This document shows positions 13,972 to 61,899 of a stretch of 64,000 nt of DNA, one piece after another (position 1 is the stretch's first letter; the number at the start of each line of letters is the position of its first letter). This stretch comes from Bdellovibrionota bacterium (GTDB lineage: Bacteria > Bdellovibrionota_C > UBA2361 > JAFLCA01). Under the pieces are notes generated by a model that was given only the letters and a program-made list of their open reading frames with translations, searched no databases and was not told the origin of the DNA. The translations under genes were made by a program, and so were the position numbers. The stretch spans positions 2,132-66,131 of the forward strand of contig JBIKUD010000004.1 of assembly GCA_044347745.1 (NCBI GenBank), in the 5' to 3' direction.

Positions 13972-15285
13972 ATGAAAACCAATGCGTTTAATCGCCGCAT
14001 CAAAGCTTGTCTCACAATTCTAAAAAGTAGCGTCAATCAAAGCGCACTGCTGCTCTCTTCGCATCCACCCGTCATACGTAGCCATGACACCCATTATCCA
14101 TATAAACAACAAAGCGACTTCTACTATCTGACTGGTTCAGAAATACAGAATTCGGCCCTGCTAATATCGAGTAAGTTAAAACACCCCATACTTTTTGCGC
14201 CTCCGCAAGATGCACACAAGACACTTTGGGAGGGGAAACAACCCAATCCAAAAATATTGGCACAGCAAATAGGAGCAGAGCTTAAAGTAGCGAAGGACAT
14301 GAGAGCGGAAGTGCTTGCGGCGCTTCGTGGGCACGATCAGTTATTGTTTCAGAACATACCGGGAAGTCTTAGTTTCAAAATTACAAGTGAACTTATTGCC
14401 ATACCTTCCTATGCCCGAGGCAATTTACCATCGCAGTTCAGTCACTCCGATGTACTTCTGGAACGCCTACGGCTCTTTAAAGATGCTGAGGAAGTGGAAA
14501 CTATTAGAGCCGCTAACGAGATTACTTCAGAGGCACTTTTGTTTGTAGCGGCAAAAATCCAACCGGGACAATTTGAATATGAAGTAGCGAGAACCCTTGA
14601 GTACATTTTTGGCATGAACAAATGCTCCCCTGCGTTCAATTCTATCATTGCCGCCGGTAAAAACGCAGCCACGCTACACTACGAGGCGCTTAATTCGAGG
14701 ATCGGCAAAAATGATATGGTACTGATTGATTCAGGAGCTCAACTAGATAATTACTGTGCCGACATTACAAGAATGCTCCCCGCCAGCGGGCAATTCAGCC
14801 CAATCCATAAATGCGTCTACGAGACAGTTCTGGCGGCACAATACGCAGCTCTGAAAAAAGTGAGGCACGGGGTGAAAATAGCTGAAGTGTACAACGCGGC
14901 AGCTGAGGTTTTAGTGGAAGGACTCTGCGAGCTAAAGGTGCTGCGTGGCACTCGCAAATCGATTATGAAAAATAAAGCCTTTAAACCCTATTTCCCACAT
15001 GGAATTGGGCATAGCCTAGGGCTTGATGTCCACGACCTCAGTCAATTACGTGGGAACAATGAGGCCGTGCTGGAAGCCGGCATGGTTTTCACTGTTGAAC
15101 CCGGCTTATATTTTGCGAAAGCCCAGGGGCAAGTTCCCGCTTGCGGCGTGCGCTTAGAGGACAATGTACTTGTAACAAACAAAGGCTGCGAAATCTTAAG
15201 TCCAGGGTTCCCTAAAGAGACGGATGAGATTGAGGCGCTAATGGAAGCACATGCGTTCGCCGGGAAAAACCGAGAAACGCTTTAA
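13972..15285 (+). CDS. Xaa-Pro aminopeptidase (M24B family)
   Basis: M24 metal-ligand motifs ([15 protein letters not shown]; [13 protein letters not shown]; EPGLY) with N-terminal creatinase-like domain; last ~14 codons and the stop lie inside repeat-element copy 1. Confidence 0.85.
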
Positions 15286-15739
15286 ATTGCCGGAAGTTGA
15301 GCTCGTAAGGAGCCCAAAATAATTGCAAGGGCAAATCGATTTCGAGCTCAATTCCTTTCAATTATTCAATCGTTTTAAATATGCCCACCCCAGCCGCGCC
15401 ATGCGCGGCTCCCCTGAAAGGGGTGTGCGTTCATACTTTGTTCCGAAGCTCGGGACCTTATTGCGAGGTGCCTCTACGGCAGGAAAGCATTCGGCCCACA
15501 GAAGGACTCACGAAAATAGCCAGTAAGCGAGGCCTAGCGAAACTTGAGCGAGGCAAGGATGCAGGGTCAAAAAGCGCGGAGCTGTATCTATTTGGGATAC
15601 AGCGAGCACATTTTGCCCCGAAGACGCAGCATCGCTCGAGTAGCAGCAGGCCGTAGCTCTGGATATTATTGTGAGCCCTTCTATACTTCGCGCCTCGTCT
15701 GAACGCATTTTGCCGACGAACAGAAACATAAAAGAGCTG
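15254..15739 (-). repeat. Copy 1 of a 4-copy structured repeat element (minus orientation), with ~190-nt internal expansion in hairpin 1
   Basis: Shares GCGTTCAGACGAGGCGCGA...GGAACAAAGTATGAACGC core (rc at 15427-15706) and terminal sequences nearly identical to copy 4 (15254-15300 rc vs 61846-61890; 15700-15730 rc vs 61647-61680). Confidence 0.8.
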
Positions 15740-15771
15740 CGTTTGCCTTAAGACTTTGCCAAAACTAAATT

Positions 15772-17499
15772 CTACACGGTGAGCACATGCGCAATAATCT
15801 TCTTTCTAAACTCCTCGAAGCCAACTCTCTTGAGCGCCGAAACTGCTACTGCATCATACTGTGCTGATAGATTTGCCACGATCGCTGGATCTTGAGCATC
15901 AATTTTATTAAGCACGTTCACTATGGGAGTATTTCCAAGCTCCATAGTTTGTAGCGTCGCTTCAACCGCAGCTTTCTTTTCAGCTACTTCGGGGTCAGAG
16001 GCATCCAGCACGTGCACTAAAACCGCAGCATCGTATAGTTCCTCAAGCGTGGCTCGAAATGCCGTGCGAAGTTCTTCAGGTAAATCGCGGATAAAACCTA
16101 CGGTATCGGAGAGAATAACGGGAGCTAATGTTACCTGCCCTTCTGGTCCGATTTGATTGAGGGTTATGCGCCGCTGTGCCGGATCAAGGGTGGCAAATAA
16201 TTTATTCTCAGCAAGTACCGTGCTTTGGGTTAAAGCATTAAAAAAGGTACTTTTACCTACGTTGGTGTACCCAAGAATTGCCACAAGCGGGACTCCCCGA
16301 TCCTGACGTTTACTTCTTCTGAGGTGGCGTTGCTCCCCAAGCTTATCTATTCGTCGTTCTAGGTCGACGATACGATCACGAATGCGTCTGCGGCCAATTT
16401 CTAATTTTGTTTCACCTGGTCCCCGACCACCAATTCCACCACTCAAGCGCGAAAGCCCAGTATCTTTTTCAACGAGACGAGGCAGATTGTACTTAAGCTG
16501 GGCAAGCTCAACCTGCAAGCGACCTTCGCTACTCGTCGCTCGTTGAGCGAAAATATCCAAAATGAGCATGCTCCGGTCAATAACTTTAAGATCAGTCATT
16601 TTGGTAATAATGCGCCATTGTCCTGGCTTTAGTTCTCCGTCAAATATGAGCATTTCAGCGCCAAGGGCGAGACAACGGAGTACCACTTGCTCCAATTTGC
16701 CCTTACCGAGGAGCGATCGAGGATCGGGGGTTCGTCGCTGCACAAAGGTATCGACGATGGCAACTCCCGCAGTGCGGGCCAGCTCACGCAGTTCAAGCAT
16801 CGAACTTTCAACCGCTTTCGCCGATTTTTCGTAGACACCAACGAGTACTGCTTTGACTCCCTGCACCTCTTTTGCGCTTGATTGCATCGCCTGAAGCTCG
16901 GCTTCAAGCTCTGCCAAAAACTCAGCGCAATTAAACTCAAAGCGACCTAAATCTGGAACTTTTTCGGTGCGTGAAAGGGGGTCGGCTTCAAGCCCAGGGG
17001 GAACTATGTAGGCATAAGCCATGCTCGTTTTTTTCTCGTCCCCTTTCAACGAAACTACCATATCAAGGCGCAGCTTATGCAAATCGGTGAAATGGTCTTG
17101 AGGGATTTGAGGTTCAGAAGTACTCGTTGACAAATCACTAAACAAGAGTCGCAGGCGTCGCAGGCGTCCGGGCCCTAATCGGTAACGTCCCAAATCAGGA
17201 AGATACAAAATTTCGCGTGAACCAATAAAAACCTCCTCTACTCGCCCCTCGCGAGAAACAAGCATACCGATGCGGCGTTTTATGGTGTGTGCGGCGCGCA
17301 AAATTTCACGTGCTACATCCAACGGCACAATCTCATCGCTTGAAAAACGACGGGAAAATAACTTTTGCACCATGCGAATTTCGCTTGGACTAAGTCCTTT
17401 GGTATTACCTTCAATATTCTGTGACATATTATTTTGAGCGTCCTTTTTTGAGGCTGGCCGAACGGGCATTCTAGTCGCGGCTTCAAATAAGCCAAGCAA
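15772..17499 (-). CDS. hflX: GTPase HflX with long N-terminal extension
   Basis: HflX N-domain and G-domain (GYTNVGKSTFFNALT, DTVGF); 575 aa vs ~430 typical. Confidence 0.85.
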   Translation of the reverse strand: MLGLFEAATRMPVRPASKKDAQNNMSQNIEGNTKGLSPSEIRMVQKLFSRRFSSDEIVPLDVAREILRAAHTIKRRIGMLVSREGRVEEVFIGSREILYLPDLGRYRLGPGRLRRLRLLFSDLSTSTSEPQIPQDHFTDLHKLRLDMVVSLKGDEKKTSMAYAYIVPPGLEADPLSRTEKVPDLGRFEFNCAEFLAELEAELQAMQSSAKEVQGVKAVLVGVYEKSAKAVESSMLELRELARTAGVAIVDTFVQRRTPDPRSLLGKGKLEQVVLRCLALGAEMLIFDGELKPGQWRIITKMTDLKVIDRSMLILDIFAQRATSSEGRLQVELAQLKYNLPRLVEKDTGLSRLSGGIGGRGPGETKLEIGRRRIRDRIVDLERRIDKLGEQRHLRRSKRQDRGVPLVAILGYTNVGKSTFFNALTQSTVLAENKLFATLDPAQRRITLNQIGPEGQVTLAPVILSDTVGFIRDLPEELRTAFRATLEELYDAAVLVHVLDASDPEVAEKKAAVEATLQTMELGNTPIVNVLNKIDAQDPAIVANLSAQYDAVAVSALKRVGFEEFRKKIIAHVLTV

Positions 17500-44163: not shown

Positions 44164-44493
44164 GAGCGTTTTTCGGATTTTCACGGAGAACGGGCGCTGT
44201 TTGAATGGGGCGTTTTTGCCCGAGGGATGAATCGAGTTTTCAACTCTTAGTTTCTCGTTCTCCCTCAAAATGCGTTCAGACGAGGCGCGAGGCTTGTGTG
44301 GCAACCGAGTGGTACAGAATGTACCTCGCAGGGAGCCTCCAAGCCTCGGAACAAAGTATGAACGCAACGAAAAGCGCATCCAGAATTGCAAGGGATTGAG
44401 CTCTTGGTGCCCCCTTCCCTGCAATGATCTAGGGCAAATCACGAGCTCAACTCCCCGCAATTCAGAGCGTTTTTCGGATTTTCACGGAGAACG
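44164..44493 (+). repeat. Copy 2 of the structured repeat element (plus orientation), flanked by perfect 29-bp direct repeats
   Basis: DRs GAGCGTTTTTCGGATTTTCACGGAGAACG at 44164-44192 and 44465-44493; hairpin 1 at 44272-44365, hairpin 2 at 44396-44450. Confidence 0.85.
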
Positions 44494-45281
44494 AACCATT
44501 TAAAGGGGATACACGGCTTCCTATACAAATGCGGGGGTATCTTATCTGCAATTTCAGCGTGAAACTCGGGAAGTTTTGACCAATGCAGTCCGGGTTTTAC
44601 ATGATGAGCTGTATGATACCCCAAGTTGCCGGTGCAGAGATTATAGGTTGGATGCATTATATTATAAGAGGCTTCATACTCATTAGGGGTATCTAATCCG
44701 GCGTGATGATAGTAAGTGTGCCAACAAGTGGCGATGTATCCCCAAGTCATAGGAAGCCAAAACACAAACAGCGCAGGCAAAGGTCTTTGCACGGTCAAGA
44801 GAAGCAGCACACAAGCCACAAGGAATGTCGCGCTTAGAAATCCGCGTTGGTACTTTGGATGCTGTCTTCCTACTTGAAAAGCTCGCCAATACCCCGTTGC
44901 CGCGATGGTAAGTGTATACTCAACGGCACCCATAGTGGTGCCGTCTTTACGCTGCCATCCTGACTCGTCTTTCTTTTGATCGGTGTAATTAATGTGATGA
45001 CCCAGCACGTGGTGCAATACCCAGGCGTTTGTCGTAATGCCTGTGTGCAAGGCATACACTATTTCGAGCATCCGATTCAGAATCAAAGATTTAAAGGTCG
45101 GAAGATGCTGGTGATGGTGATTCCAGGAGCAAATACAGGCCTTTGGGAAGAGCATTAATACGAACCAGAAGCTTAAGTACCAAGGTGAATCAACGAGGGC
45201 GTACACCAGCAAATCAAAGGCAAATAACCCCACTATAATAATAGTGGGACAACGGTCAGCCTGATAACGAAAAATGCCCAT
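44439..45281 (-). CDS. Membrane fatty-acid-desaturase-family (di-iron His-box) protein
   Basis: His boxes HHQHL, HHVLGHH, HTAHHVKP; start set to internal Met to avoid 90-bp overlap; last ~20 codons and stop come from repeat copy 2. Confidence 0.6.
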   Translation of the reverse strand: MGIFRYQADRCPTIIIVGLFAFDLLVYALVDSPWYLSFWFVLMLFPKACICSWNHHHQHLPTFKSLILNRMLEIVYALHTGITTNAWVLHHVLGHHINYTDQKKDESGWQRKDGTTMGAVEYTLTIAATGYWRAFQVGRQHPKYQRGFLSATFLVACVLLLLTVQRPLPALFVFWLPMTWGYIATCWHTYYHHAGLDTPNEYEASYNIMHPTYNLCTGNLGYHTAHHVKPGLHWSKLPEFHAEIADKIPPHLYRKPCIPFKWFVLRENPKNALNCGELSS

Positions 45282-45295
45282 ACTACATCCTAAAC

Positions 45296-46765
45296 CTAGG
45301 TTCCCACCGCGCTTAGTACACTTGACGCTTGCTTGGACCACTGCCCCCGGCCAAGCGAAGTCAATTTCATTCGGCGGCGATGCCAATGACGGGTAAGCTC
45401 GTGGGGCGTGCCAACAAATATCGTCGGATCGCTTAACTGCGATTGCAATAACGCTAAAAAACTATCGGTAAAACCAGCAAAAAGCCATTGGTTGCATCCC
45501 GTTTCCGTATGCCAATCAACCACGGCGCAGAGTCCCCTCTCCTGAATTAATTTAAGTACATGCATTGCTGCTTCGAGCGCAATTCCTTCATCGGAAAATC
45601 CTCTTAACTTTGCATCTGCTGTTGGCAAGACGTGTTTCTCGAGCAAACAGGTTGGAAACACATACATATCAAGCGGTTTTTCCCGTTCAAGGTCATATGG
45701 TCGGTACGGTAAGGCAGTGCCAGCCCGAAATCCTGGAATATCTCTCCAGGCAATCGACATGTCATAGCGAAAGCCAGCATTTACATGTTTTCTATGCGTT
45801 CGATGCGGTTTTTCCCAATCAAGAGCCCAGTAATGATGCCGCAAACCCCAAATGGGAGTTTCAAGTTTCTCCTCCAAAAACTTTTTGGCATGAATGAAAT
45901 AATCCAAAGATTTTTTAGCCTCGATACCTGCATGCAACCCAAACTCCCAGCCCTGCTGGCTCAAGGTTCTTAGCGGCTGCCAAAGCGCATCATCTGTTTT
46001 GGGATGAAAATAACTTTTACAATCATTCAGAGTTCTATGAGTGCCAAAAGCCGCTGTAGAGAGCAAAAAGCAAGACTTGGCAGCAAACTGATTCTCAAGG
46101 TCGGCCCAATTTTGGAAGCAAAAATAAGGATCCTGAATAATCGGGGCCCGGCGCGCTTTAAGACTTGCCCAGAGTAAATCTTTGTAAACCGGCAACCGGC
46201 GTCGAGCCCATTTCGCTACCAACGCACATAGTTCGTTCATAGACCCAAGTTGAAGGGCGTCGGTGTCATGTGTAACAACGAGGGCAGATTTTTTTCCTCC
46301 TGGCCAAAGCGTTTCGGTTTCGCCGAGGAGATTTTCGTACCTCGCTTTAAACGCCAAGGCACACTCATCAACCAGCGGACGGGCAGCAACCGCCTGCCTC
46401 CACTCAGGAAGCACAGAGGAATAGAATATTCCGCGATCATCACGGCAGTTCTCTCCAATTTCTTGCTCATCTAAGAAAGTGAGCAAGCGAAAAGTCAGGC
46501 CAATACAATCGAAGCCAGGCTCAAGGTAATTTTGGTAAGCTTGCCGAAGAGTTGCCGATAATTTTTTTTCGAAATACCATTCAGGCTCACAACGAATTAC
46601 TTCCTTCCCGCTCAGCGCAGAACAGTTGGAATTTGTGTAGACCCAATGAGCAGACTCGATAGTATCTTCTAATTGCAGGGCCACTCCCAGCCTGAGCGCA
46701 AATTCCTGCCACGCATATTCAACGCGCGGTCTTAGTTGTGAGGGAACATCAATAAAAAGCTTCAT
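45296..46765 (-). CDS. Hypothetical protein (possibly carbohydrate esterase/deacetylase-like)
   Basis: 489-aa ORF in the polysaccharide locus; motif VVTHDTDA and His-rich segments; no confident family. Confidence 0.45.
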   Translation of the reverse strand: MKLFIDVPSQLRPRVEYAWQEFALRLGVALQLEDTIESAHWVYTNSNCSALSGKEVIRCEPEWYFEKKLSATLRQAYQNYLEPGFDCIGLTFRLLTFLDEQEIGENCRDDRGIFYSSVLPEWRQAVAARPLVDECALAFKARYENLLGETETLWPGGKKSALVVTHDTDALQLGSMNELCALVAKWARRRLPVYKDLLWASLKARRAPIIQDPYFCFQNWADLENQFAAKSCFLLSTAAFGTHRTLNDCKSYFHPKTDDALWQPLRTLSQQGWEFGLHAGIEAKKSLDYFIHAKKFLEEKLETPIWGLRHHYWALDWEKPHRTHRKHVNAGFRYDMSIAWRDIPGFRAGTALPYRPYDLEREKPLDMYVFPTCLLEKHVLPTADAKLRGFSDEGIALEAAMHVLKLIQERGLCAVVDWHTETGCNQWLFAGFTDSFLALLQSQLSDPTIFVGTPHELTRHWHRRRMKLTSLGRGQWSKQASSVLSAVGT

Positions 46766-48216
46766 GGTACACTCTTACTGAGCTGAGAACGAAGATTCAA
46801 GGCCCGCCAAGCCCACCATGCGACCATACACAACAACGCAAGGCAAAATTGGATCAGCACTGAATCTAACACGAGCGAGAGCAACACGAGAATAAAAAGC
46901 GAACTGCCCAAGCTCATGAGAATTGAGGCACCCAATGCAATCAAAGCTGTAACAGGCATGCCCGCGTAGGAATAAATAAACCAAAGATAAGCAACATGAT
47001 ACAAGACCGCACACACGGTAAATGCCTGAACCACCACAAGAGAGCTCCCGCCCCCAGCTAACAACAGATAGACAACAGCCATATTTATTAAATCAGCAAC
47101 AAGCTGCAACAAAAAGACCACCCGCTGTTTGCCCGCAACTTCAAATATACGCTCTGGCCAGCTCGTGAAGGCTAAACAATAGCCCACCACAGCCATCACA
47201 CTACAAAAAGTTCCCGCTTGGGCCCATTGCTGCCCCATCAGCAAAGGGAAGAGCTGCGGAGAAAACCACACAAGCAGCGCGAGCCCCGGAGTAGCAAACT
47301 CTGCCAAAAGCTGCATCAAACGTCTCGTCAGCTTTGTAAACGCTTCAGTACCTAAAGAAAGCGCAGCTTCCCGAAAAAATACCCTCCCCAGCGATACCGA
47401 AAGGACCGCCATCGGCGAAAAAAGCAAAGTGCGACAAAGCGCAACGTAACCCGCATCAGCATTTCTCCCAAACGCCAATAAAAAGACCGCCAAAAATCCG
47501 CCCGAAAAATTAGTAAGCAAAGAATGTGGAATATTGTAGAGCGGGAAAGCGCGGTAGTACCAAGCTACCTGAGACAGATACCCGAGCTGTCTCTTGCGAT
47601 TTTGATAGATGCGCTGACATTCGGCGGTCAGTTGGCGCCAGAGTGGAAGTAGGCCCACAAAGCGCCCTGCTGCATGGCCCCAGAGTAGCCCCGTGCTGCC
47701 AAGACTAGCGCAACCGATTTTGCCGGCGGCTGAGGCCAACTGCATAAGGAGCATATTTTGGGACAAGCTAGCATAGCGCTCTTTCCGATTGAGCACATAC
47801 GAGCCAAATTCGGCCAGACCGACCACTGCGACTGTCAGTGGTAAGGCGATAAGCCAAGTTGAAGGTACAAGCTGAACGTAATAAAATCCTATCAAAAGCA
47901 GAGCAAAGAGGATTAGAGATAAAGTTATCACCAATCCCACCCCCATACAGGTCACCGCAGAAGCCCGACGCGGATTACGTGGAAGCAGCACCGCAAGCTC
48001 ATAGCGTCCGGTAACCACAGCCCCGCATAGCCCGGCTGCAAGCATAAAGGCAGCATAGTTACCAAAGGCTTCTGGAGAATAGAGCCTCGATAAAATGGGT
48101 AATACCGCAAAAGGGACGAGCTGGGCACACACCGAGCCCGTAAGTAGCACTGCCGCCTTCTTTAAAAGCGTTCCCATAGAACGGGTATTGGTGTTGACGT
48201 CGGTGTGCGAAAGCAT
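46762..48216 (-). CDS. Wzx-like polysaccharide flippase (MOP/PST family)
   Basis: ~12-14 TM helices, 484 aa, polysaccharide-biosynthesis-protein N-terminal pattern. Confidence 0.75.
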   Translation of the reverse strand: MLSHTDVNTNTRSMGTLLKKAAVLLTGSVCAQLVPFAVLPILSRLYSPEAFGNYAAFMLAAGLCGAVVTGRYELAVLLPRNPRRASAVTCMGVGLVITLSLILFALLLIGFYYVQLVPSTWLIALPLTVAVVGLAEFGSYVLNRKERYASLSQNMLLMQLASAAGKIGCASLGSTGLLWGHAAGRFVGLLPLWRQLTAECQRIYQNRKRQLGYLSQVAWYYRAFPLYNIPHSLLTNFSGGFLAVFLLAFGRNADAGYVALCRTLLFSPMAVLSVSLGRVFFREAALSLGTEAFTKLTRRLMQLLAEFATPGLALLVWFSPQLFPLLMGQQWAQAGTFCSVMAVVGYCLAFTSWPERIFEVAGKQRVVFLLQLVADLINMAVVYLLLAGGGSSLVVVQAFTVCAVLYHVAYLWFIYSYAGMPVTALIALGASILMSLGSSLFILVLLSLVLDSVLIQFCLALLCMVAWWAWRALNLRSQLSKSVP

Positions 48217-48339
48217 CTTAGTGCGTAGGCCAATTCCCAGAATTATTGAGACCTGATGTTTTAAGTAAAAAAACTATTGAGCCCCTAGCCTACTCTTAGG
48301 ATATAGTTAGCTCAATCACTTATCCGCCCTTCACAACTC

Positions 48340-49488
48340 ATGAAAGCGTACCAAATATGTAATTCCTGTGTCATGGATACAAGCGATCCTCAGATTCGCT
48401 TCGATTCTCATGGCGTATGTAATCATCATGCTGAATATGCCGACACCTGCGCCTCTCAGCTTTTGCCCTCTCCCGCCCGTGAACAGGCACTTGAGCGTGT
48501 CGTTGCTCAAATGAAATCTGAAGGTAAAGGCAAACCGTATGACTGTGTCTTGGGACTTAGCGGCGGCGTAGACAGCTCCTACATGGCGCTACTGGTGCAC
48601 CGACTCGGACTACGACCTCTCGTCGTGCATTTTGATAATGGATGGAATTCAGAGTTGGCAGTAAGCAACATAGAAAAAATCCTCACCAAACTTCAATTTG
48701 ATCTCGAAACTTATGTCGTAGACTGGGAAGAGTTTAGAGATTTACAAGTCGCTTTCCTCAAAGCATCAGTTGCGAATGCTGAGTATCCTACCGATCATGG
48801 GATATTCGCCTGCCTCTACCGCTCCGCCGCCAAACACGGAATTCGTTATGTGCTGAGCGGGAGCAATCTACAATCGGAGGGGATTCTTCCTGCCAGCTGG
48901 GAATATCACTACATGGACTATCGCCACCTTCGGGCTATTCACGCTCAATTTGGCACTCGACCACTTAAGACGTTTCCCACACTTAGTTTTAGCCGCTACC
49001 TTTATTATTTCTACGTTAAGCGACTGCAGAAGGTACGGTTATTGCAGTTTGTCGATTATCACAAAGAATCCGCTATAGCTGAATTAAAGAATTTTTTTGA
49101 TTGGCGTTATTACGGCGGAAAACATTACGAATCGTTGTTTACAAAATTTCATCAAGGTTTTTATCTTCCTAAAAAATTCGGAATCGACAAGCGCCGAGCC
49201 CATCTTTCATCGTTAATAGTCTCGGGGCAAATAACGAGAGAGGAGGCCCTGAAGGAGCTAGAAAAGCCGGCGTATCCAGAAGCCGAATTGGAAACTGACC
49301 TAAACTACATGCGGAAAAAGCTGGAACTAAGCGAAGAAGACTTCAGCCAAATCTTAAATTCGAAACCTAGGGCCTATTCCGAATACCCCAACAATAATAA
49401 GTTGTTCGAATTTTTGCGCTCAGGTCGTTCAAATCTTCGATCACTGATCCAGCACCGGCAAAACACATTCAATCCAAAGCCGGTGTAG
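48340..49488 (+). CDS. N-acetyl sugar amidotransferase, WbuX/WbpG/PseA family, paralogue 2
   Basis: Same 4-Cys N-terminus and PP-loop LGLSGGVDSSY; nucleotide stretch GGAATTCAGAGTTGGC shared with paralogue 1. Confidence 0.8.
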   Translation: MKAYQICNSCVMDTSDPQIRFDSHGVCNHHAEYADTCASQLLPSPAREQALERVVAQMKSEGKGKPYDCVLGLSGGVDSSYMALLVHRLGLRPLVVHFDNGWNSELAVSNIEKILTKLQFDLETYVVDWEEFRDLQVAFLKASVANAEYPTDHGIFACLYRSAAKHGIRYVLSGSNLQSEGILPASWEYHYMDYRHLRAIHAQFGTRPLKTFPTLSFSRYLYYFYVKRLQKVRLLQFVDYHKESAIAELKNFFDWRYYGGKHYESLFTKFHQGFYLPKKFGIDKRRAHLSSLIVSGQITREEALKELEKPAYPEAELETDLNYMRKKLELSEEDFSQILNSKPRAYSEYPNNNKLFEFLRSGRSNLRSLIQHRQNTFNPKPV

Positions 49489-49491
49489 TCG

Positions 49492-50280
49492 ATGAAACTT
49501 GCCCTTCTTGGAATGCCAGACAACGACAACACCCGCCAATTTAGGCTGTACTTAGAGTCTGAGTTTGCGGACTGGGAACTCTCAGTAATTTATTGGAAGC
49601 CTGATTTTAGAAATCAGCTTCAAAGAACCCTGCGTAAGCTCAGACTGGCTGGTGCAAAGGCCACCACTCAGAGAATTTCTCAAGCACTCAAAATTAAAAA
49701 ATCGAGACGGAGGAACGAGCAATTCCTAAAATACGCCGATACAACAAAAGAGTTTTGGGTATCCCATCATAACTCCGAGCACTGCGCCGAAATTATTATA
49801 AAGCAAAAAATCGACCTGGTTCTGCTCTCAACCGATGCTATTTTAACCAAAAAGGTACTGAGAGCCCCTCGACTACTCACCCTGAATGCTCACCCTGGAC
49901 TCACCCCCCGCTATCGCGGGCTTGGCTCCCTTTTTTACATGCTTCAAGATGGGCTACAGCCGGTAGTCAGCGTTCACGCCGTCGACGAAGGTATAGATAC
50001 AGGGCCGCTTTTATATCGAGAAGTGGTGCCGGTTGACCCCAAAACTGGCTTGGAGTCTATAGTGAACACCGTGCTTACGCAGCGACTTTCTATTGTTGGC
50101 AAAGTATTGCGTGCTATCGAGTTAGATGGTCCCACATATCAAGATACCTTCTTAGAGCAAAGTGCGATGACCAGAGGCATGCCACTTGCCGAACGACAAA
50201 ATCTCGACGAAGCATTAAAAACCGGAAAGATACAATTAACTCTCCCCCAGCATGAGTTTCAGGATAATTGGGCGCCCTGA
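49492..50280 (+). CDS. Formyltransferase-domain protein (sugar N-formyltransferase-like)
   Basis: Formyl_trans_N signature NAHPGLTPRYRGLG (cf. HPSLLPxxRG). Confidence 0.7.
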   Translation: MKLALLGMPDNDNTRQFRLYLESEFADWELSVIYWKPDFRNQLQRTLRKLRLAGAKATTQRISQALKIKKSRRRNEQFLKYADTTKEFWVSHHNSEHCAEIIIKQKIDLVLLSTDAILTKKVLRAPRLLTLNAHPGLTPRYRGLGSLFYMLQDGLQPVVSVHAVDEGIDTGPLLYREVVPVDPKTGLESIVNTVLTQRLSIVGKVLRAIELDGPTYQDTFLEQSAMTRGMPLAERQNLDEALKTGKIQLTLPQHEFQDNWAP

Positions 50281-50417
50281 TTTTCTAAACGCCGTTTAAT
50301 TTACTGTTGTCAGTTGAACTACGCACATGTAAATATTTTTCTAGTTCCCGTGCGCTGTGCGAAGCTACTGCATCATTATAGAGAACGCACCGAGCTTGAG
50401 GTTTAAAAAGGTAGGCT

Positions 50418-52340
50418 GTGGTATCTCGATTAGAAACTCTCCTCATTCGTGTTAGACTCCCCCTCATTCTGTGCCTAGGGCTTATTCTTACCTCCCTCAG
50501 CTACACCCTAGCCTTAGGCCTACGCTTTGATTTTGATTGGAACGAAGTATTTCTTCTCGATCGCTTTTTATTGCCCTGGAGCCTCCTTCTTTTTTATCGG
50601 GCAGCCAGTTATTCGTTTTTTCAATTAAATCGCGGTTATTGGCGTTATGCTTCAACTCAAGACCTTATAGACATCATTAAGGCACACGGGCTTTCGAGTC
50701 TATTTTTAACCGCAACAGCTCTATTTTTGCGTCTGGAAGAATTCCCACGCTCCGTAGTTCTTATAGAACTCGCCATTTCGATTATATTTTGTGGCGGTAG
50801 CCGATTGGCAGTCCGTGTATTAGGTGAGCGCCTCGTGGCCCAGCAAGATATGGAGGAAGATACTGCCCGAGACGTAATCGTTATCGGCGCTGGTGATTCA
50901 GGGCATCTTATAATTAAAAACATGCTCAGTTTAAAGCGACTCTCGTATAGACCCGTAGCAGTGTTGGACGATAGCGACAATCTGCAGGGAGTCAACTTGT
51001 ACGGCGTGAAGGTAGTTGGACGAATCACTAATCTCGAAGAACAACTAGAAAAGTTTCCTAGAGTCAGCGCAGTTATTGTAGCAATTCCCACAATTTCGAA
51101 TACGCGTCTTCGCAGCATTGAGGCAGTTTGCAAAACCTTTGGAGTGGCACTTAAAAAACTCCAATCATTTGAAGATATCGCTTGCATCGACGCCTCTGTT
51201 AAGCACGAGGGCGTAAGCATCGAACAGGTGCTTGAAAAGAAAACTCAAATTGAACATGAAGATGAAATTCGTAGAGAACTGAATAATCGCACCATACTGA
51301 TTACCGGAGCTGGCGGCTCTATTGGTTCGGAAATTGTGCGCCAGGTCTGTTATTTTGACCCCCATAAAGTGGTACTTCTCGATAGCTCTGAATACAATCT
51401 CTTTCGAATGGAGCGAGAACTACACACAGCCTTTGAGCGTGGAGGAAAAAAAGCTGAATTCCGCTGCGTAGTGGCAAATATTGTTGATGCCGCGAGACTA
51501 AGCAAAATTTTCAGTTCCGAAAAACCTGAATATGTCTTTCACGCCGCAGCCTATAAGCACGTGCCACTTATGGAGCATAACTGCTACGAGGCCTTTCGTA
51601 ATAATGTAATTGGCACCAAAAATGTACTGGATGCCTCAGTGCAGTTTGGAGTGCGGCGCTTTGTGCTTATCTCCAGCGACAAAGCTGTGGCTCCGTCAAG
51701 CATTATGGGATGCTCAAAGCTTTTGGCTGAACTGCTCGTACAATGGTACTCGCATACCCAGCAAACCACAGCTAGCAATCACCCACTTGCCACCTCAATC
51801 GTCCGCTTTGGAAACGTGATCAACAGTACAGGCAGTGTCATTCCGATATTTAAAGAGCAGATTTTAAGTGGTGGTCCTGTGACTATCACCCACCCAGACA
51901 TGGAGCGCTATTTCATGTCTATTCGTGAAGCAGTGCGTCTTGTGCTTACCGCAGGGACTCTCGGTCAGAAAGGAGAAATTTATATTCTCGACATGGGACG
52001 CCCGATGAAGATTGTAGATGTAGCGCGTAAAATGATGGCGCTCTACGGTCGCCGCGACATTGAAATTGAGTACACCGGCATGCGGCCTGGGGAAAAGCTC
52101 ACGGAGGAGTTACTCACCTCGCATGAACTACGGGGACCAACTCGGTTTGATAAAGTAAACAGAGTGCAAAACTTTGAGCCACCAAGCATCGACATTTCTC
52201 GTTGGGTACTGGAGGTAGAACAAAAGCTGCCACGCCTCTCTGATACCGAGATACGAGATCTCATGTTTACGCTTGCGAATACTGCCTGCCCTTCGGCATC
52301 TCCAGTAGCGCAACCAAAGACAACAGCCAAAGTTGCCTAG
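50418..52340 (+). CDS. Membrane-anchored UDP-N-acetylglucosamine 4,6-dehydratase (WbpM/PglF/CapD family)
   Basis: Four N-terminal TM helices, then short-chain dehydrogenase ILITGAGGSIGSEI and CapD-type catalytic region; 640 aa. Confidence 0.85.
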   Translation: MVSRLETLLIRVRLPLILCLGLILTSLSYTLALGLRFDFDWNEVFLLDRFLLPWSLLLFYRAASYSFFQLNRGYWRYASTQDLIDIIKAHGLSSLFLTATALFLRLEEFPRSVVLIELAISIIFCGGSRLAVRVLGERLVAQQDMEEDTARDVIVIGAGDSGHLIIKNMLSLKRLSYRPVAVLDDSDNLQGVNLYGVKVVGRITNLEEQLEKFPRVSAVIVAIPTISNTRLRSIEAVCKTFGVALKKLQSFEDIACIDASVKHEGVSIEQVLEKKTQIEHEDEIRRELNNRTILITGAGGSIGSEIVRQVCYFDPHKVVLLDSSEYNLFRMERELHTAFERGGKKAEFRCVVANIVDAARLSKIFSSEKPEYVFHAAAYKHVPLMEHNCYEAFRNNVIGTKNVLDASVQFGVRRFVLISSDKAVAPSSIMGCSKLLAELLVQWYSHTQQTTASNHPLATSIVRFGNVINSTGSVIPIFKEQILSGGPVTITHPDMERYFMSIREAVRLVLTAGTLGQKGEIYILDMGRPMKIVDVARKMMALYGRRDIEIEYTGMRPGEKLTEELLTSHELRGPTRFDKVNRVQNFEPPSIDISRWVLEVEQKLPRLSDTEIRDLMFTLANTACPSASPVAQPKTTAKVA

Positions 52341-52409
52341 GCGCCATTTATTTCCGATATCGCCGCAGCGAAGTCCCTGTGGATATTAAATTTTATAAGG
52401 AGCCCCTGG

Positions 52410-52688
52410 ATGGGGTGCTCTACCCCCTGCGTACTTGGACTTTCTTTAGAGCACTTAGTGGCATATACTAAGCAAATGGGTGGCGATAGTTTTTCATTTT
52501 GGCGTTTCGACTTGGCTCAAGTCTTGAAGGCGCTTTTTGTTATTTTGCTTCTTAGAGGCATTACCATCTTGTTGGGTTTTGAGCAGCAAGTGCCAATTGT
52601 TGACGACATTCTAAATGTGCTTGTTAATGCGGCTAAGGTGATGGCAGAAGCGATTAGTGGGTTTGTGCGCGGCCGCACAAGCTTCTAA
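52410..52688 (+). CDS. Small hypothetical membrane protein (92 aa), doubtful
   Basis: ORF ending exactly at repeat copy 3; hydrophobic stretch; no homology recognised. Confidence 0.25.
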   Translation: MGCSTPCVLGLSLEHLVAYTKQMGGDSFSFWRFDLAQVLKALFVILLLRGITILLGFEQQVPIVDDILNVLVNAAKVMAEAISGFVRGRTSF

Positions 52689-52689
52689 G

Positions 52690-53029
52690 CGCGCTGTGAA
52701 AAACGTAAAAATGCTTTAAATTGCAGAAATTCCGGCTCGAGAAAAACAGGACTCTCTTGACGGATAATTTGTAGCTCGAGCCCAATTCCTTGCAATTTTG
52801 GCCGCATTTTTACTCGCGTTCATACTTTGTTCCGAGGCTCGAAGTCTCCCTGCGAGGTGCATTGAGCACCACTCAGTCGCCATCAAGCCTCGCGCCTCGT
52901 CTGAACGCATTTTGACAGCGCGCTCAGAAAACAACTAACTCGCCTTGCACGATTTTCAAGAAGCCCATCTGTTTTTGTAAATCTTAAATACGCGCTGTGA
53001 AAAACGTAAAAATGCTTTAAATTGCAGAA
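52690..53029 (-). repeat. Copy 3 of the structured repeat element (minus orientation), flanked by perfect 39-bp direct repeats
   Basis: DRs CGCGCTGTGAAAAACGTAAAAATGCTTTAAATTGCAGAA at 52690-52728 and 52991-53029; hairpin 1 rc at 52816-52908. Confidence 0.85.
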
Positions 53030-53043
53030 GTTCTTCTGCTCGC

Positions 53044-59560: not shown

Positions 59561-59638
59561 GTCCCTATCGTCTAGCCCGGTCTAGGACGTCAGCCTTTCA
59601 CGTTGAAAACACGGGTTCGAATCCCGTTAGGGACACCA
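59561..59638 (+). tRNA. tRNA-Glu: tRNA-Glu (anticodon UUC)
   Basis: GTCCCTA acceptor stem pairing with TAGGGAC, anticodon loop CUUUCAC, T-arm GGGTTCGAATCCC, discriminator A + CCA; closely resembles canonical bacterial tRNA-Glu. Confidence 0.85.
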
Positions 59639-59729: not shown

Positions 59730-60734
59730 TTGAGCATCAAGACAAAAATTGAAATCGGAGCTCTGCTTAGCCAAGTCAAAGGCCTGGGTGCGGTCGAGGA
59801 CATTGTCCGCTCAAAATTTGAATCAGATGCACCGCTGCTTTCAGAAATTCCCCGCTACACATTCGATCTTGGTGGAAAACGCATACGACCTATTTTAACG
59901 CTTACCGCAGCAAAACTTGCTGGACAAAGCCAACCGTCTCAGGAAGTTCTGGACGTTGCTGCTGGAATAGAACTTATTCACCTGGCGACGCTGCTCCACG
60001 ACGATATTATTGATAAATCGCCAGTCAGACGGCATAAGGAATCGGCGTACTCAAAATTTGGGATAGAGAGCACCCTGCTTTCCGGCGATTTTTTGCTGGT
60101 TCGTGCTTTTGCCCTTTGTGCCCGGCTTAAGCCTGAAATAATAGCTGCAACCGAAAAAGCTTGTGTTGAGCTTGTTGAGGGCGAAATACTTGAGACGCCC
60201 TTACACACCAGTACCCATACAATTGAAAGTTCTCTGCAAGTTGCCCATAAAAAAACTGCTGCCCTCTTTAGGCTCTCTGCATTCTCAGGAACCTTCAGCA
60301 TCACCGAAAATGCAAAGGTAGGAGAACAATTTTCGGACTTTGGGGAGTCCTTAGGCACCGCGTTTCAAATTTTAGATGATATCCTGGATATAACCTCCGA
60401 TGAGTCAGTGCTCGGGAAACGCTCCGGCATGGATTTGGTCGAAAGAAAGCCCTCATTAGTAAACGTTTTGTGGCTTCAGTCTGGCGCACAACTAGCCCAG
60501 GAACTCCTCATTGCACCCCGCTCCCCGGAGAAAGAGGAGGCTTTTCGCCAGTTGGGCCTGAAAGCCTTGCGTAATTCCGAGGTAATAGAACAGGCGCGGC
60601 AGCTTGCAACCAATTATGTTGAAAAGGCTCGTAAATCCCTGACCGCTGGCTGTGAACTTTTAGGAAGCCCCGATGCAAATGCCCTCAAATTATTAGATGG
60701 CTTGCTGCAATATACTCTTGAAAGAGTGCATTAG
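59730..60734 (+). CDS. Polyprenyl diphosphate synthase (trans-IPPS, IspB/HepT-like)
   Basis: FARM LLHDDIIDKSPVRR and SARM FQILDDILDIT. Confidence 0.85.
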   Translation: MSIKTKIEIGALLSQVKGLGAVEDIVRSKFESDAPLLSEIPRYTFDLGGKRIRPILTLTAAKLAGQSQPSQEVLDVAAGIELIHLATLLHDDIIDKSPVRRHKESAYSKFGIESTLLSGDFLLVRAFALCARLKPEIIAATEKACVELVEGEILETPLHTSTHTIESSLQVAHKKTAALFRLSAFSGTFSITENAKVGEQFSDFGESLGTAFQILDDILDITSDESVLGKRSGMDLVERKPSLVNVLWLQSGAQLAQELLIAPRSPEKEEAFRQLGLKALRNSEVIEQARQLATNYVEKARKSLTAGCELLGSPDANALKLLDGLLQYTLERVH

Positions 60735-61261
60735 TTTTCCGGGAAAACCCAAGAACAAAAAAGAGAAAATTAAGCTGCACCCGAAATTCTGTAAAACTGC
60801 CTTACTGAGGGTGACCACCATAGCTTGATTGGGCTCTCGCTTTGCCTAGAGCTTCAAGCACTCAACCCCTTGCAATTGCAGCTTATTTTAGATAACCAGG
60901 AGTTAGTCTTCCCTATAGCCGGGATAAAAATCTTCAAACCTTAGTCAAATTCTAGGATACGTACATTCTCTGCCCCTCCATAACTATACACAGACATTCA
61001 GGGAATTGCGCTTTGACCGTTCCCGATCTGGAGCCAAGAGCCGGGAAGCACTTGGTTAAAGTGAGGCCTAAAGCCCCATCCAGATAGCCCCACTCTCGCT
61101 CTTTTCTTTTTTGGGTGACTTGCTGGATCCCAGACAAACGCTCACCCGATATTGGTTCTTACTTAGGTTGTTTCTCATTTGTTCTCTGGAACTGTTTTTT
61201 GCCCGTGCACATTGGTTGCCTGGCTAAAAAAAGAAACACAACCTTTTTGTTGGAGTATATC

Positions 61262-61585: not shown

Positions 61586-61611
61586 GGGCCCTCTCCGGGG
61601 CCCTTTCTATT
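61586..61611. terminator. Rho-independent terminator (bidirectional type)
   Basis: AAAAAA-GGGCCC-tctccg-GGGCCC-TTTCTATT: perfect 6-bp GC stem flanked by A-tract and U-tract. Confidence 0.55.
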
Positions 61612-61632
61612 AAAGTAAAGCCTTGAGGCGAA

Positions 61633-61896
61633 CTTAGCTTTTTCACGTTTCTGTTCGTCGGCAAAATGCGTTCAGACGAGGCGCGAGGTTCGTGGGCCGA
61701 ATGAGTGGTACTATACGTACCTCGCAATGAGGCCCCGAGCCTCGGAACAAAGTATGAACGCAACGAAAAACGCTCCTAGAATTGCTAGGAATTGAGCTCA
61801 AAATCGTTCTTTTTCCTGCAATAATGCGAGGCTTTTAGCGAGCTCAACTTCCTGCAATTTAGAGCGTTTTTCGGTTTTTCCCGGCGAACCTACTCT
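61633..61896 (+). repeat. Copy 4 of the structured repeat element (plus orientation), terminal repeats degenerate
   Basis: Hairpin 1 at 61668-61761, hairpin 2 TTGAGCTC...GAGCTCAA at 61791-61845, right-end block CAATTTAGAGCGTTTTTCGGTTTTTCCCGGCGAACC. Confidence 0.8.
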
Positions 61897-61899
61897 TTT

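What the first reader, a model, noticed from the sequence alone, without database searches (positions are those of the whole stretch)
44164..44493. Four-copy family of a ~270-490 bp structured repeat element not assignable to a known family
The same conserved core is found at 15254-15739 (-), 44164-44493 (+), 52690-53029 (-) and 61633-61896 (+). It begins (A)AAATGCGTTCAGACGAGGCGCGAGG, ends in CCTCGGAACAAAGTATGAACGCAACGAAAA(A/G)CGC, and is followed by (A)GAATTGC(A/T)AGG(G/A)ATTGAGCTC and a second palindromic arm. Four copies in 64 kb, on both strands and all in intergenic positions, is far above chance. It does not look like CRISPR, an integron attC, a REP/BIME, a tRNA fragment or any insertion-sequence end that I recognise.
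Basis: seen in the sequence. Interest (0 to 1): 0.85.

Follow-up and report, generated by a model that had tools for sequence, protein, structure and literature searches.

The report
Small structured non-coding mobile element family
This is a previously undescribed family of small (about 285-530 bp) non-coding jumping elements that fold into a conserved Y shape and have landed exactly where two converging genes meet, in an uncultured freshwater Bdellovibrio/Oligoflexia-like bacterium. It is a broadly familiar kind of bacterial repeat with a few odd features, and not a new class of RNA gene as far as the evidence goes.

Summary
The window holds four copies, and a fifth lies 9 kb beyond its right end. 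Pairwise identity is 66-85%, with invariant blocks of 25, 16 and 8 nt. All copies share a Y-shaped fold: a closing stem, a conserved arm A and a long hairpin arm B. The fold has z about -8, 93% of cells paired, and 21 of 79 pairs with compensatory double changes.

Nothing matches in Rfam, plasmids, phages, GTDB species genomes, IMG/VR or the JGI contigs searched.

The decisive new result is that the element is mobile. In a sister species (PepP 92% identical), pepP and hflX overlap convergently with no element. In the window, a 526-bp copy sits there, flanked by a 10-bp target-site duplication (CGCATGTGCT). More distant syntenic relatives also have empty sites at the positions of copies 3, 4 and 5.

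All five copies lie at junctions of convergent genes. No transposase, reverse transcriptase or Cas gene lies within the 84 kb examined.

Best reading: a new, lineage-restricted, MITE-like non-autonomous element mobilised in trans.

Unexplained: no significant terminal inverted repeats, variable 5' ends, and perfect upstream copies of the element's own right end in two copies. These leave room for a mechanism that uses a single-stranded or RNA intermediate.

The parts
15256..15781 (-). Copy 1, complete element (526 bp). It runs from left end CACCGTGTAG... to right end ...CCCGGCGAA(C). It carries two extra closed hairpin domains (about 190 nt within arm A, about 45 nt between the arms).
   Evidence: The boundaries are fixed by the empty site in the sister species. 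Removing 15256-15781 plus one repeat copy gives a gapless alignment to L018. The CM and nhmmer hits are, and the fold is.
15782..15791 (.). Left copy of the 10-bp target-site duplication CGCATGTGCT of copy 1 (9 bp if the shared C belongs to the element).
   Evidence: It is present once (CGCATGTTCT) in the empty site of the sister species and twice in the window.
15246..15255 (.). Right copy of the target-site duplication of copy 1.
44164..44493 (+). Copy 2 (subfamily B). It comprises an upstream copy of its own right end, a 5' region of about 62 nt, and the Y-shaped core at 44255-44492.
44164..44192 (+). Upstream direct repeat of copy 2. It is 29/29 identical to the right end at 44465-44493.
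44465..44493 (+). Right end of copy 2 (GAGCGTTTTTCGGATTTTCACGGAGAACG). It is fully base-paired with the base of arm B and with the 5' closing strand.
52690..53033 (-). Copy 3 (subfamily B). It comprises an upstream repeat at 52991-53033, a 5' region, the core at 52689-52925, and the right end at 52690-52732.
   Evidence: family D2; 42/43 identical.
61617..61889 (+). Copy 4 (subfamily A). It comprises a leader from about 61617 and the core at 61651-61889. It lies between a bidirectional terminator hairpin (61590-61615) and the stop codon of a 76-aa gene (61900).
   Evidence: (I3).
60734..60880 (-). Probable decayed copy. It has an arm-B-like AATTGCAAGGGGTTGAG (60877-60861) and a right-end-like GGGTTTTCCCGGAAAAC (60750-60734) that abuts the stop of the polyprenyl synthetase gene.
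   Evidence: There is a weak nhmmer hit at E=0.013 and the sequence was read. The covariance model did not detect it.

Best explanation
This is a lineage-specific family of small non-coding transposable elements (MITE-like, non-autonomous).

Steps that are shown:
- The element inserts as a discrete unit and duplicates 9-10 bp of target.
- Copies are absent from the orthologous sites of relatives.
- All known insertions lie at the meeting point of two convergent genes.
- The body encodes no conserved protein.
- It keeps a Y-shaped single-strand fold made of three parts. The first is a 13-bp closing helix between a 5' segment and the extreme right end. The second is arm A, with invariant single-stranded loops. 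The third is arm B, a hairpin of about 30 bp whose 3' strand plus two U5 tracts form the right end.

Steps that are inferred:
- An enzyme encoded elsewhere in the genome moves the element in trans. It is most simply a DDE-type transposase that makes 9-10-bp staggered target cuts, possibly through a circular or head-to-tail intermediate.
- Arm A and the right end are the cis-acting sites that this enzyme recognises.
- Once inserted, the element is transcribed as part of the 3' ends of the flanking convergent genes.
- There, arm B with its flanking A and U tracts probably acts as a bidirectional terminator or RNA-stabilising hairpin. This would make insertions at convergent junctions tolerated or mildly useful.
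For: Mobility:
- In the sister species (PepP 92% identical), pepP (429 aa) and hflX overlap convergently by 50 nt with no element.
- Deleting window 15256-15781 plus one CGCATGTGCT restores a gapless alignment to that site.
- The sister PepP ends ...EHAQ, exactly as predicted from the reconstruction, whereas the window protein ends ...[11 protein letters not shown], read from the element.
- Sites are also empty at copies 4 and 5 in a syntenic relative (TIM 54%; tpiA and its convergent neighbour are 1 nt apart).
- Sites are empty at copies 3 and 4 in a relative whose CNNM is 79% identical (gene map only).
- Copy 5 is shared with the sister species. Copy 2 is absent downstream of the sister's orthologous gene.

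Non-coding:
- The ATG-initiated ORF of copy 2 is not kept in frame in copy 3 and is stopped in copy 4.
- Its only database relative is itself.

Structure:
- MFE is -113.5 and -111.6 kcal/mol, with z = -8.0 and -8.7.
- The consensus has 79 pairs and 92.9% of cells are paired.
- 21 pairs carry double changes, against 7.8 +/- 2.1 in shuffles (0/500) and at most 4 when the partners are slid.
- The two extra segments of copy 1 are closed helical domains that leave the Y intact.

Constraint:
- Invariant runs of 25, 16 and 8 nt stand against 66-85% pairwise identity.
- 22 of 33 unpaired arm-A positions are invariant, against 7 of 39 in arm B.

No autonomous gene:
- Pfam scans of about 40 window proteins and the gene maps of the flanks show no transposase, RT, integrase or Cas.

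Precedent:
Against: - Copy 1, whose ends are fixed by the empty site, has no statistically significant terminal inverted repeat. The best local score is reached by 787 of 1000 shuffles. The only end-anchored similarity is an offset match of 10/20 (T(T)CRCCGKG). A DDE transposase normally needs TIRs.
- The 5' ends differ between copies and subfamilies, whereas the 3' end is constant.
- A target-site duplication is visible only for copy 1.
- Copies 2 and 3 (and, more weakly, copy 5) carry an upstream copy of their own right end that ends at the right-end tip. A simple cut-and-paste insertion does not explain this.
- A double-strand DNA transposase gives no reason for 79 conserved base pairs with compensatory changes across the body. 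Template-switch 'correction' of quasi-palindromes could mimic selection.
- No partner enzyme was found.
- Expression and terminator activity are untested.
- Only five copies were available.
Confidence: 0.55

Rival explanations
1. RNA-mediated (SINE-like) mobilisation. The element is transcribed, and a reverse transcriptase encoded elsewhere recognises the folded 3' module (arm A, arm B and the closing helix). cDNA synthesis is primed at a staggered target nick. This would give a variable-length TSD, a constant 3' end and variable or truncated 5' ends. Template jumping onto a second RNA molecule would give short upstream copies of the 3' end.
For: - There is a 10-bp TSD without a significant TIR.
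- The right end is constant, while the 5' regions differ between subfamilies and start at different points.
- The upstream partial copies all end at the right-end tip and start at variable inner positions (29 nt, 43 nt, possibly 9 nt). They are 100% or 42/43 identical to the same copy's right end, although right ends differ by about 25% between copies.
- Structure conservation with compensatory changes implies a single-stranded stage.
- G-U pairs outnumber A-C mismatches 28 to 8 on the sense strand.
- The consensus fold energy is better on the sense strand, -100.6 against -84.3 kcal/mol.
Against: - No bacterial TPRT retroposon with TSDs is known (established knowledge), so the prior is low.
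- No RT was found in the 84 kb examined.
- There is no conserved promoter.
- The roughly 10-nt spacer between the upstream right-end copy and the left end in copy 5 equals the TSD length. This fits a DNA circle junction or a head-to-tail dimer better than non-templated addition.
- The strand asymmetry is modest, and the reverse strand also folds well.
Confidence: 0.13
2. A host-level functional RNA family. Each copy would be a gene or 3'-UTR module for a structured RNA of about 240 nt. Candidates are a terminator or stabiliser, a protein sponge, or a regulator. Selection would maintain it in every copy, and mobility would be only its historical means of spread.
For: - Single-stranded loops are invariant and stems covary.
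- Expansions occur as closed helices, as in bona fide structured RNAs.
- Arm B is flanked by A5 and U5 tracts, like a bidirectional terminator.
- Four of the nine convergent junctions in the window are occupied (my count).
Against: - There is no conserved promoter or canonical terminator call.
- The element is absent from all relatives but the sister species, so it has no conserved cellular role.
- There is no Rfam relative.
- Conservation can equally reflect constraints on the active (master) lineage for mobility.
- One copy appears to be decaying.
Confidence: 0.15
3. A hitch-hiking guide-RNA module. The element would be a non-autonomous derivative that carries the guide or bridge RNA of an RNA-guided mobile-element enzyme (TnpB/IscB omega-RNA, or an IS110 bridge or seek RNA). 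It would be analogous to the ssr9 sRNA module that rides on the ISPpu9 transposase.
For: - The layout is a scaffold, then a long anti-repeat:repeat-like duplex, then an exact 3' boundary. This resembles omega-RNA and type V guide layouts (established knowledge; fold).
- Internal segments pair with the element's own end.
- The ISPpu9/ssr9 work shows that an sRNA-only module can move on its own as a circle (PMC12288879).
- Right-end-spacer-left-end junctions in copies 2, 3 and 5 resemble circle junctions.
Against: - IS200/IS605 and IS110 insertions do not make a 9-10-bp TSD (established knowledge), but copy 1 has one.
- Insertion sites share no common target motif.
- There is no HEARO or other guide-RNA hit.
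- No TnpB, IscB or IS110 gene was seen.
Confidence: 0.07
4. A CRISPR-like mini-array with a tracrRNA, a retron ncRNA, or a type I toxin-antitoxin repeat.
For: - Two copies have repeat-insert-repeat architecture with 29-43-nt repeats.
- There is a weak resemblance of arm B to Rfam CRISPR-DR36 (17.9 bits, E=0.19).
- A Y shape with a closing helix resembles retron msr-msd (established knowledge).
Against: - The 'spacer' is the conserved part.
- There are never more than two repeats per locus.
- No cas gene or RT lies nearby.
- The unit inserts with a TSD.
- There is no conserved small ORF on either strand.
Confidence: 0.02

Closest known systems
Bacterial MITE-like small mobile repeats, e.g. bcr1 of the Bacillus cereus group and SPRITE/BOX/RUP of Streptococcus pneumoniae (review PMC3184786)
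   Same: - It is small, non-coding and multi-copy.
- It is flanked by a target-site duplication and is absent from orthologous sites in relatives.
- It folds into a stable structure kept by compensatory changes (bcr1).
[quoted passage not shown]
   Different: - No significant terminal inverted repeats were found.
- The fold is a Y (three-way) with an invariant-loop arm, rather than one long hairpin.
- The TSD is 9-10 bp (bcr1 has 5 bp).
- Two copies carry a perfect upstream copy of their own right end.
- There is no sequence similarity to any of these families.
ssr9 module of ISPpu9 (IS110 family) in Pseudomonas putida KT2440 (PMC12288879)
   Same: - An sRNA-sized non-coding module exists as solo copies.
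- It is bounded by copies of the parent element's end sequences.
- It moves in trans, via circles, using a transposase encoded elsewhere.
- It inserts in extragenic palindromes.
   Different: - ISPpu9 duplicates only an AG dinucleotide and targets one REP sequence. Here there is a 10-bp TSD and no shared target motif.
- No IS110 gene or A/B boxes were found.
- There is no sequence similarity.
REP / BIME / REPIN elements mobilised by RAYT transposases
   Same: They are extragenic, palindromic and enriched between convergent genes. Arm B looks like two inverted units of about 35 nt (a REPIN-like doublet).
   Different: - REP units are 20-40 nt, occur in hundreds of copies and make no TSD.
- This element is 285-526 bp, has a non-palindromic conserved arm A, and makes a TSD.
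Omega-RNA-bearing non-autonomous IS200/IS605 derivatives (PATEs) and TnpB/IscB guide RNAs
   Same: It has a structured non-coding body with an exactly conserved 3' boundary followed by unrelated flank, and it has no TIRs.
   Different: - IS200/IS605 insertion makes no TSD and needs a fixed 4-5-nt target motif next to the left end.
- There is no Rfam HEARO hit.
- No tnpA, tnpB or iscB gene was found nearby.
Eukaryotic SINEs (non-autonomous TPRT retroposons)
   Same: - It has a TSD of about 10 bp without TIRs.
- It has a structured RNA-like body.
- The 3' end is constant and the 5' ends vary.
- The upstream partial 3'-end copies are what template jumping would give.
   Different: - There is no poly(A) or simple-repeat tail.
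- There is no internal pol III promoter.
- No partner RT is known, and nothing of this kind is known in bacteria.

Membership tests
MITE (miniature inverted-repeat transposable element) | Small (<~600 bp), multi-copy, no transposase gene | tested here: met
   The element is 285-526 bp and five copies lie in 84 kb. There is no conserved ORF.
MITE (miniature inverted-repeat transposable element) | Flanking target-site duplication and empty orthologous sites | tested here: met
   Copy 1 has a 10-bp duplication, and the empty site is present in the sister species. Sites for copies 3-5 are empty in other relatives. No TSD is visible for copies 2-5.
MITE (miniature inverted-repeat transposable element) | Terminal inverted repeats matching those of a parent IS | tested here: not met
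   For copy 1, whose ends are known, the best left-versus-right-end alignment is no better than shuffles (787/1000). Only a weak offset match of 10/20 was found. The parent IS is unknown.
MITE (miniature inverted-repeat transposable element) | A related autonomous IS in the same genome supplies the transposase | not testable with these tools
   Only the window plus about 10 kb on each side could be read. There is no transposase there.
REP/BIME/REPIN | 20-40-nt imperfect palindromic unit, high copy number, no TSD, RAYT partner | tested here: not met
   The unit is 285-526 bp with a non-palindromic arm A, and a TSD is present. No solo right-end units occur in the window.
IS200/IS605 derivative (PATE) / TnpB-IscB omega-RNA | Insertion without TSD, 3' of a fixed short target motif; subterminal hairpins; omega-RNA family match | tested here: not met
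   A 10-bp TSD is present. The flanks share no motif. There is no HEARO or other Rfam hit.
IS110/IS1111 bridge-RNA (seekRNA) module | Conservative site-specific insertion that duplicates only a core dinucleotide at one conserved target; an adjacent DEDD recombinase in autonomous copies | tested here: not met
   The duplication is 10 bp and the targets are unrelated. No such gene was seen in 84 kb. Autonomous copies elsewhere could not be searched.
Retron msr-msd ncRNA | ncRNA with an a1/a2 closing helix immediately next to a reverse transcriptase gene; single copy; not flanked by a TSD | tested here: not met
   A closing helix is present, but there is no RT next to any of the five copies. The unit also transposes with a TSD.
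CRISPR array / tracrRNA | At least 3 regularly spaced identical repeats with variable spacers; cas genes; anti-repeat | tested here: not met
   There are at most two repeats per locus, and the sequence between them is the conserved part. There are no cas genes. The Rfam CRISPR-DR36 match scores 17.9 bits against a gathering score of 38.
Any Rfam 15 RNA family | Covariance-model score at or above the gathering threshold | tested here: not met
   The only hit in the window is a tRNA at 59561-59635. The permissive scan of copy 2 gave only sub-threshold noise.
Type I toxin-antitoxin repeat (e.g. Ibs/Sib, Ldr/Rdl) | A conserved small hydrophobic ORF with an overlapping antisense RNA | tested here: not met
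   No reading frame is conserved across the copies. Indels are not multiples of three, and there is a stop in copy 4.

The most novel reading that the evidence does not exclude
The element may be a selfish structured RNA (or single-stranded DNA) that is copied through a single-stranded intermediate. The most radical version is a bacterial SINE-like retroposon. An RT encoded elsewhere would recognise the folded 3' module, prime on a staggered nick at convergent-gene junctions, and occasionally jump templates. That would leave the upstream copies of the element's own 3' end.
Probability: 0.13. Interest if true: 0.9.

Novelty: new variant of a known kind. Interest (0 to 1): 0.42.

Why it matters
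As a new MITE-like family in a poorly sampled Oligoflexia/Bdellovibrionota lineage, it is mainly of annotation value.
- It explains assembly breaks.
- It explains spurious 'hypothetical proteins' called inside the copies.
- It explains altered C-termini of PepP, HflX and a desaturase.
- It may explain a rearranged polysaccharide locus bracketed by two inverted copies.

It would matter more if its oddities hold up genome-wide. These are precise insertion at convergent-gene junctions (three of which have essentially no intergenic space in relatives), no clear terminal inverted repeats, a body under strong structural constraint, and regenerated upstream copies of its own right end. If so, it points to a transposition mechanism that reads a folded single strand and targets sites of convergent transcription. 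No such mechanism has been described for bacterial non-autonomous elements.

Tried and rejected
**Collection scans**
- The exact 22-mer of the core in GTDB species genomes gave 0 hits.
- The gapped core pattern in JGI metagenome contigs gave 0 hits. I verified that the pattern works on the window and on the fetched loci.
- A 19-mer in the same collection gave one hit (L007). It lies in an unrelated 5' leader of an ACT-domain gene, has no other similarity to the element and no Rfam family, so I treat it as chance.
- A 20-mer in IMG/VR gave 0 hits.
- blastn of copy 4 against plasmids and phages gave no match.

**Indirect routes to more copies**
- I used the spurious 77-aa ORF of copy 2 as a protein probe for other copies. 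It found only itself.
- The search for related loci with the CNNM protein found only a 28%-identical Tepidisphaerales locus with no element.
- The DNA of two informative relatives (sample 3300059473) could not be fetched.

**Hypotheses rejected**
- Protein-coding or type I toxin: no frame is conserved.
- Hammerhead or other ribozyme: the CAGACGAG...GAAC resemblance lacks the conserved U, and no Rfam ribozyme hit was found.
- CRISPR/tracrRNA, retron, IS200/IS605, IS110 and REP: see the membership table.
- The long repeats of copies 2 and 3 as target duplications: the right-hand repeat is in register with the right end of copy 1, which the empty site shows to be element sequence.
- 'Same orientation as the upstream gene' as a signal: this is trivially true between convergent genes.
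- A sigma-70 promoter shared by the copies: only copy 3 has a candidate.
- A composite transposon formed by copies 2 and 3: the right-end tips of their outer repeats point inward.
Full report
**Observation**

- With copy 2 as the nhmmer query, the others score E = 6e-45 (61641-61906), 1e-32 (52691-52923) and 3e-18 (15252-15473).
- The repeat finder recovers the same direct and inverted pairs.
- A gapped pattern built from the two invariant blocks hits three times, against none in 100 shuffles.
- A fifth copy lies 9 kb beyond the right end of the window, downstream of tpiA (L012 705-985, minus strand).
- Pairwise identity of the 238-nt cores is 66-85%. Even so, CAAAATGCGTTCAGACGAGGCGCGA (25 nt), AACAAAGTATGAACGC (16 nt) and ACCTCGCA (8 nt) are invariant in all five.
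- Copies 1, 4 and 5 form one subfamily (79-85% identical). Copies 2 and 3 are more divergent.

**Anatomy**

Each core folds into the same Y.
- A 9-bp closing helix pairs a 5' segment (GTTCGTCGG in copies 1, 4 and 5) with the last nucleotides of the element (CCGGCGAAC). An AAAA/UUUU helix extends it.
- Arm A is TGCGTTCA...TGAACGCA. It encloses conserved internal loops and two covarying inner helices.
- Arm B is a hairpin of about 30 bp (CGAAAAACGC..AATTGC.AGGAATTGAGCTC / GAGCTCAACTTCC.GCAATT..GCGTTTTTCG) with a variable tip of about 40 nt.
- The last 38 nt or so of the element are therefore entirely base-paired to two internal segments.

The statistics support the fold.
- MFE is -113.5 and -111.6 kcal/mol, with z = -8.0 and -8.7.
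- On the five-sequence alignment, RNAalifold gives 79 pairs.
- 92.9% of cells form standard pairs.
- 21 pairs show changes on both sides, against 7.8 +/- 2.1 in column shuffles (0/500) and at most 4 when the partners are slid.
- The closing helix is rewritten in copy 2 (CGTTCTCC/GGAGAACG) and copy 3 (GCGCGCTGT/ACAGCGCGC).

Copy 1 carries about 190 and about 45 extra nucleotides. Both form closed helical domains that leave the Y intact.

Unpaired positions of arm A are 22/33 invariant, against 7/39 in arm B. Arm A therefore looks like a sequence-specific recognition module.

The sense strand is mildly favoured.
- There are 28 G-U cells against 8 A-C cells. The structure was predicted on this strand, so the count is somewhat biased.
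- The consensus energy for the four short copies is -100.6 kcal/mol on the sense strand against -84.3 on the reverse.
- Single-copy MFEs are nearly symmetric.

**Not a gene for a protein or a known RNA**
- The ATG inside the invariant block opens a 77-codon frame in copy 2, which JGI/ENA annotate as a hypothetical protein.
- A 1-nt indel in copy 3 and a stop in copy 4 destroy that frame.
- Rfam 15 finds only a tRNA in the window. A permissive scan of copy 2 gives only sub-threshold noise, including CRISPR-DR36 at 17.9 bits against a gathering score of 38.
- Nothing similar exists in PLSDB plasmids or INPHARED phages.
- The core is absent from GTDB species genomes and IMG/VR. The single hit in the JGI contigs searched is a chance match.

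**Context**

The window is ordinary chromosome. It carries sdh, mdh, recN, nadK, pepP, hflX, coaE, an O-antigen/polysaccharide block, queG, a tRNA, ispB and rluD. It has no transposase, integrase, RT or Cas protein. The same holds for 10 kb on either side.

The best named homologues are Oligoflexia/Bdellovibrionota MAG proteins at 47-61% identity. The organism recurs in freshwater metagenomes with identical element sequences.

**The element is mobile**

The PepP protein cluster contained a 429-aa representative from a sister species (92% identical). The window protein is 437 aa.
- In that species (L018), pepP and hflX are convergent and overlap by 50 nt, with nothing between them. The sequence reads ...GATTATTGCGCATGTTCTGCCATTAACGCC....
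- In the window, the same flanks are separated by 526 bp, and CGCATGTGCT occurs on both sides (15782-15791 and 15246-15255).
- Deleting 15256-15781 and one repeat gives a gapless alignment of about 90% identity to the sister site.
- The sister PepP ends ...EHAQ, as the reconstruction predicts. The window PepP ends ...[11 protein letters not shown], read from the element's right end.

This is a classical insertion with a 10-bp target-site duplication (9 bp if the shared C is the last base of the element). It is younger than the split of the two species.

Other sites agree.
- Copy 5 is older, because the sister species has it at the same place (L014).
- A syntenic relative with 54%-identical TIM has tpiA and its convergent neighbour 1 nt apart (the copy-5 site). 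It has a 134-nt spacer at the copy-4 site, and no copy in 16 kb.
- A relative with 79%-identical CNNM has CNNM overlapping its convergent neighbour by 4 nt (the copy-3 site) and the same 134-nt spacer at the copy-4 site. Only the gene map was available for this relative.
- The sister species lacks copy 2 downstream of the orthologous gene, although that region has also diverged.

**Target choice**

All five copies lie at the junction of two convergent genes.
- By my count, the window has about nine convergent junctions among roughly 58 gene junctions, and four of the nine are occupied.
- Three of the five junctions have essentially no intergenic space in relatives.
- So either the insertion machinery targets such sites, or selection removes nearly everything else.
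- The apparent co-orientation with the 'upstream' gene is meaningless between convergent genes.

**Features that do not fit a textbook MITE**

(a) The ends of copy 1 are known, and they are not significant inverted repeats. 787 of 1000 shuffles score as well. Only an offset 10/20 match, T(T)CRCCGKG, is seen. The inverted partner of the right end lies about 60 nt inside the left end, where it forms the closing helix.

(b) The 3' end is constant, but the 5' regions differ between subfamilies and begin at different points.

(c) Copy 2 carries a 29/29 copy of its own right end, and copy 3 a 42/43 copy. Each lies 73-77 nt upstream of the invariant block that opens arm A, directly after the stop codon of the neighbouring gene.
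- Right ends differ by about 25% between copies, so these repeats were made from the same copy's end. They are either recent or regenerated.
- They end at the right-end tip and start at different inner positions.
- In copy 5, a 9-nt CGGCGAACT (intact in the sister) lies 9-10 nt upstream of the left end CACCGTG defined by copy 1. This spacer equals the TSD length.
- These look like right-end/spacer/left-end junctions. Circular intermediates, head-to-tail dimers or template jumps would all produce them.
- They are not target duplications, because the right-hand repeat is in register with the right end of copy 1, which the empty site proves to be element sequence.

(d) No TSD is visible around copies 2-5.

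**Interpretation**

That the family is a non-autonomous transposable element is well supported (I put it near 0.9).

How it moves is open.
- The conservative reading is a DDE-type transposase encoded elsewhere, weak TIRs, 9-10-bp staggered cuts, and perhaps copy-out/paste-in through a circle.
- Bacterial precedents exist for TSD-flanked small repeats with RNA-level compensatory changes (bcr1). Precedents also exist for terminator-like repeats biased to convergent gene ends (SPRITE, REP) (PMC3184786).
- An sRNA-only module that rides on another element's transposase as a circle has been shown for ssr9/ISPpu9 (PMC12288879).

Against a purely double-stranded DNA mechanism stands the conserved, covarying fold of the whole body. 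It implies either a function of the transcript in each copy, such as a terminator or stabiliser, or a single-stranded stage in mobility. Template-switch correction of quasi-palindromes is a possible non-selective source of some 'compensatory' changes.

The combination of a TSD without TIRs, a fixed 3' end, ragged 5' ends and upstream partial 3' ends is what target-primed reverse transcription with template jumping would leave. I give that reading about 0.13, because nothing of this kind is known in bacteria and no RT was seen.

IS200/IS605, IS110, retron, CRISPR and REP memberships each fail a defining feature (see the table).

**Verdict**

The element is best filed as a new, lineage-restricted variant of bacterial MITE-like elements rather than a new RNA class. 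Interest is moderate (0.42). It would rise sharply if a genome-wide census confirmed junction targeting, ragged 5' ends and the absence of a DDE partner.

Noticed in passing
window 60734-60880 (-): The 380-nt gap between the polyprenyl synthetase gene and the next gene holds an arm-B-like AATTGCAAGGGGTTGAG and a right-end-like GGGTTTTCCCGGAAAAC. The latter abuts the synthetase stop codon. This is probably a decayed sixth copy or a related element. Arm A is not recognisable.
   Followed up: partly
window 44164-53033: Copies 2 (+) and 3 (-) are the two subfamily-B copies with perfect upstream repeats. They are inverted relative to each other and bracket an 8.4-kb block of polysaccharide-biosynthesis genes. 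In the relative with 79%-identical CNNM, the CNNM gene, the small ORF and the desaturase gene are adjacent without that block. Recombination or co-mobilisation involving the two copies is possible.
   Followed up: no
window 15480-15670 and 15375-15420 (-): Copy 1 is the youngest insertion, and it alone carries a closed hairpin domain of about 190 nt (GAAGGGCTCAC...GTGAGTCCTTC) inside arm A. It also carries a double hairpin of about 45 nt between the arms. Neither is repeated elsewhere in the window. A 91-codon ORF on the opposite strand (15381-15656) looks spurious.
   Followed up: partly
relative contig in sample 3300059473, tpiA/399-aa junction: The relative with 50%-identical TIM has a 669-nt gap exactly at the convergent junction that copy 5 occupies in this genome. 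The 54% relative has 1 nt there. A diverged member of the family, or another element, may sit there. The DNA could not be fetched.
   Followed up: no
window 13972-15285 (+), 15772-17499 (-), 44439-45281 (-): The insertions rewrote protein C-termini. PepP gained 8 residues (FAGKNRETL instead of Q). HflX lost its last residues (…VLTV* instead of …VLPLTPQSHPSL*). The desaturase ends in 18 residues read from the right end of copy 2.
   Followed up: yes
L004, L013, L014 (contig ends): The contigs of L004 and L014 stop inside an element copy. The L013 contig also ends in this region, but near the tRNA gene and not inside a copy. The family is thus a source of assembly breaks for this organism.
   Followed up: partly
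window 44385-44410 (+): The 5' strand of arm B in copy 2 (TTGCAAGGGATTGAGC) gives a sub-threshold match to Rfam CRISPR-DR36 (17.9 bits, E=0.19). From memory, it resembles the 5' half of a Thermus-type CRISPR repeat. I treat it as coincidence.
   Followed up: partly
window 61590-61615 (+): A textbook bidirectional intrinsic terminator (AAAAAAGGGCCCTCTCCGGGGCCCTTTCT) lies immediately upstream of copy 4. The relatives have a different long hairpin in the 134-nt spacer at this junction.
   Followed up: no
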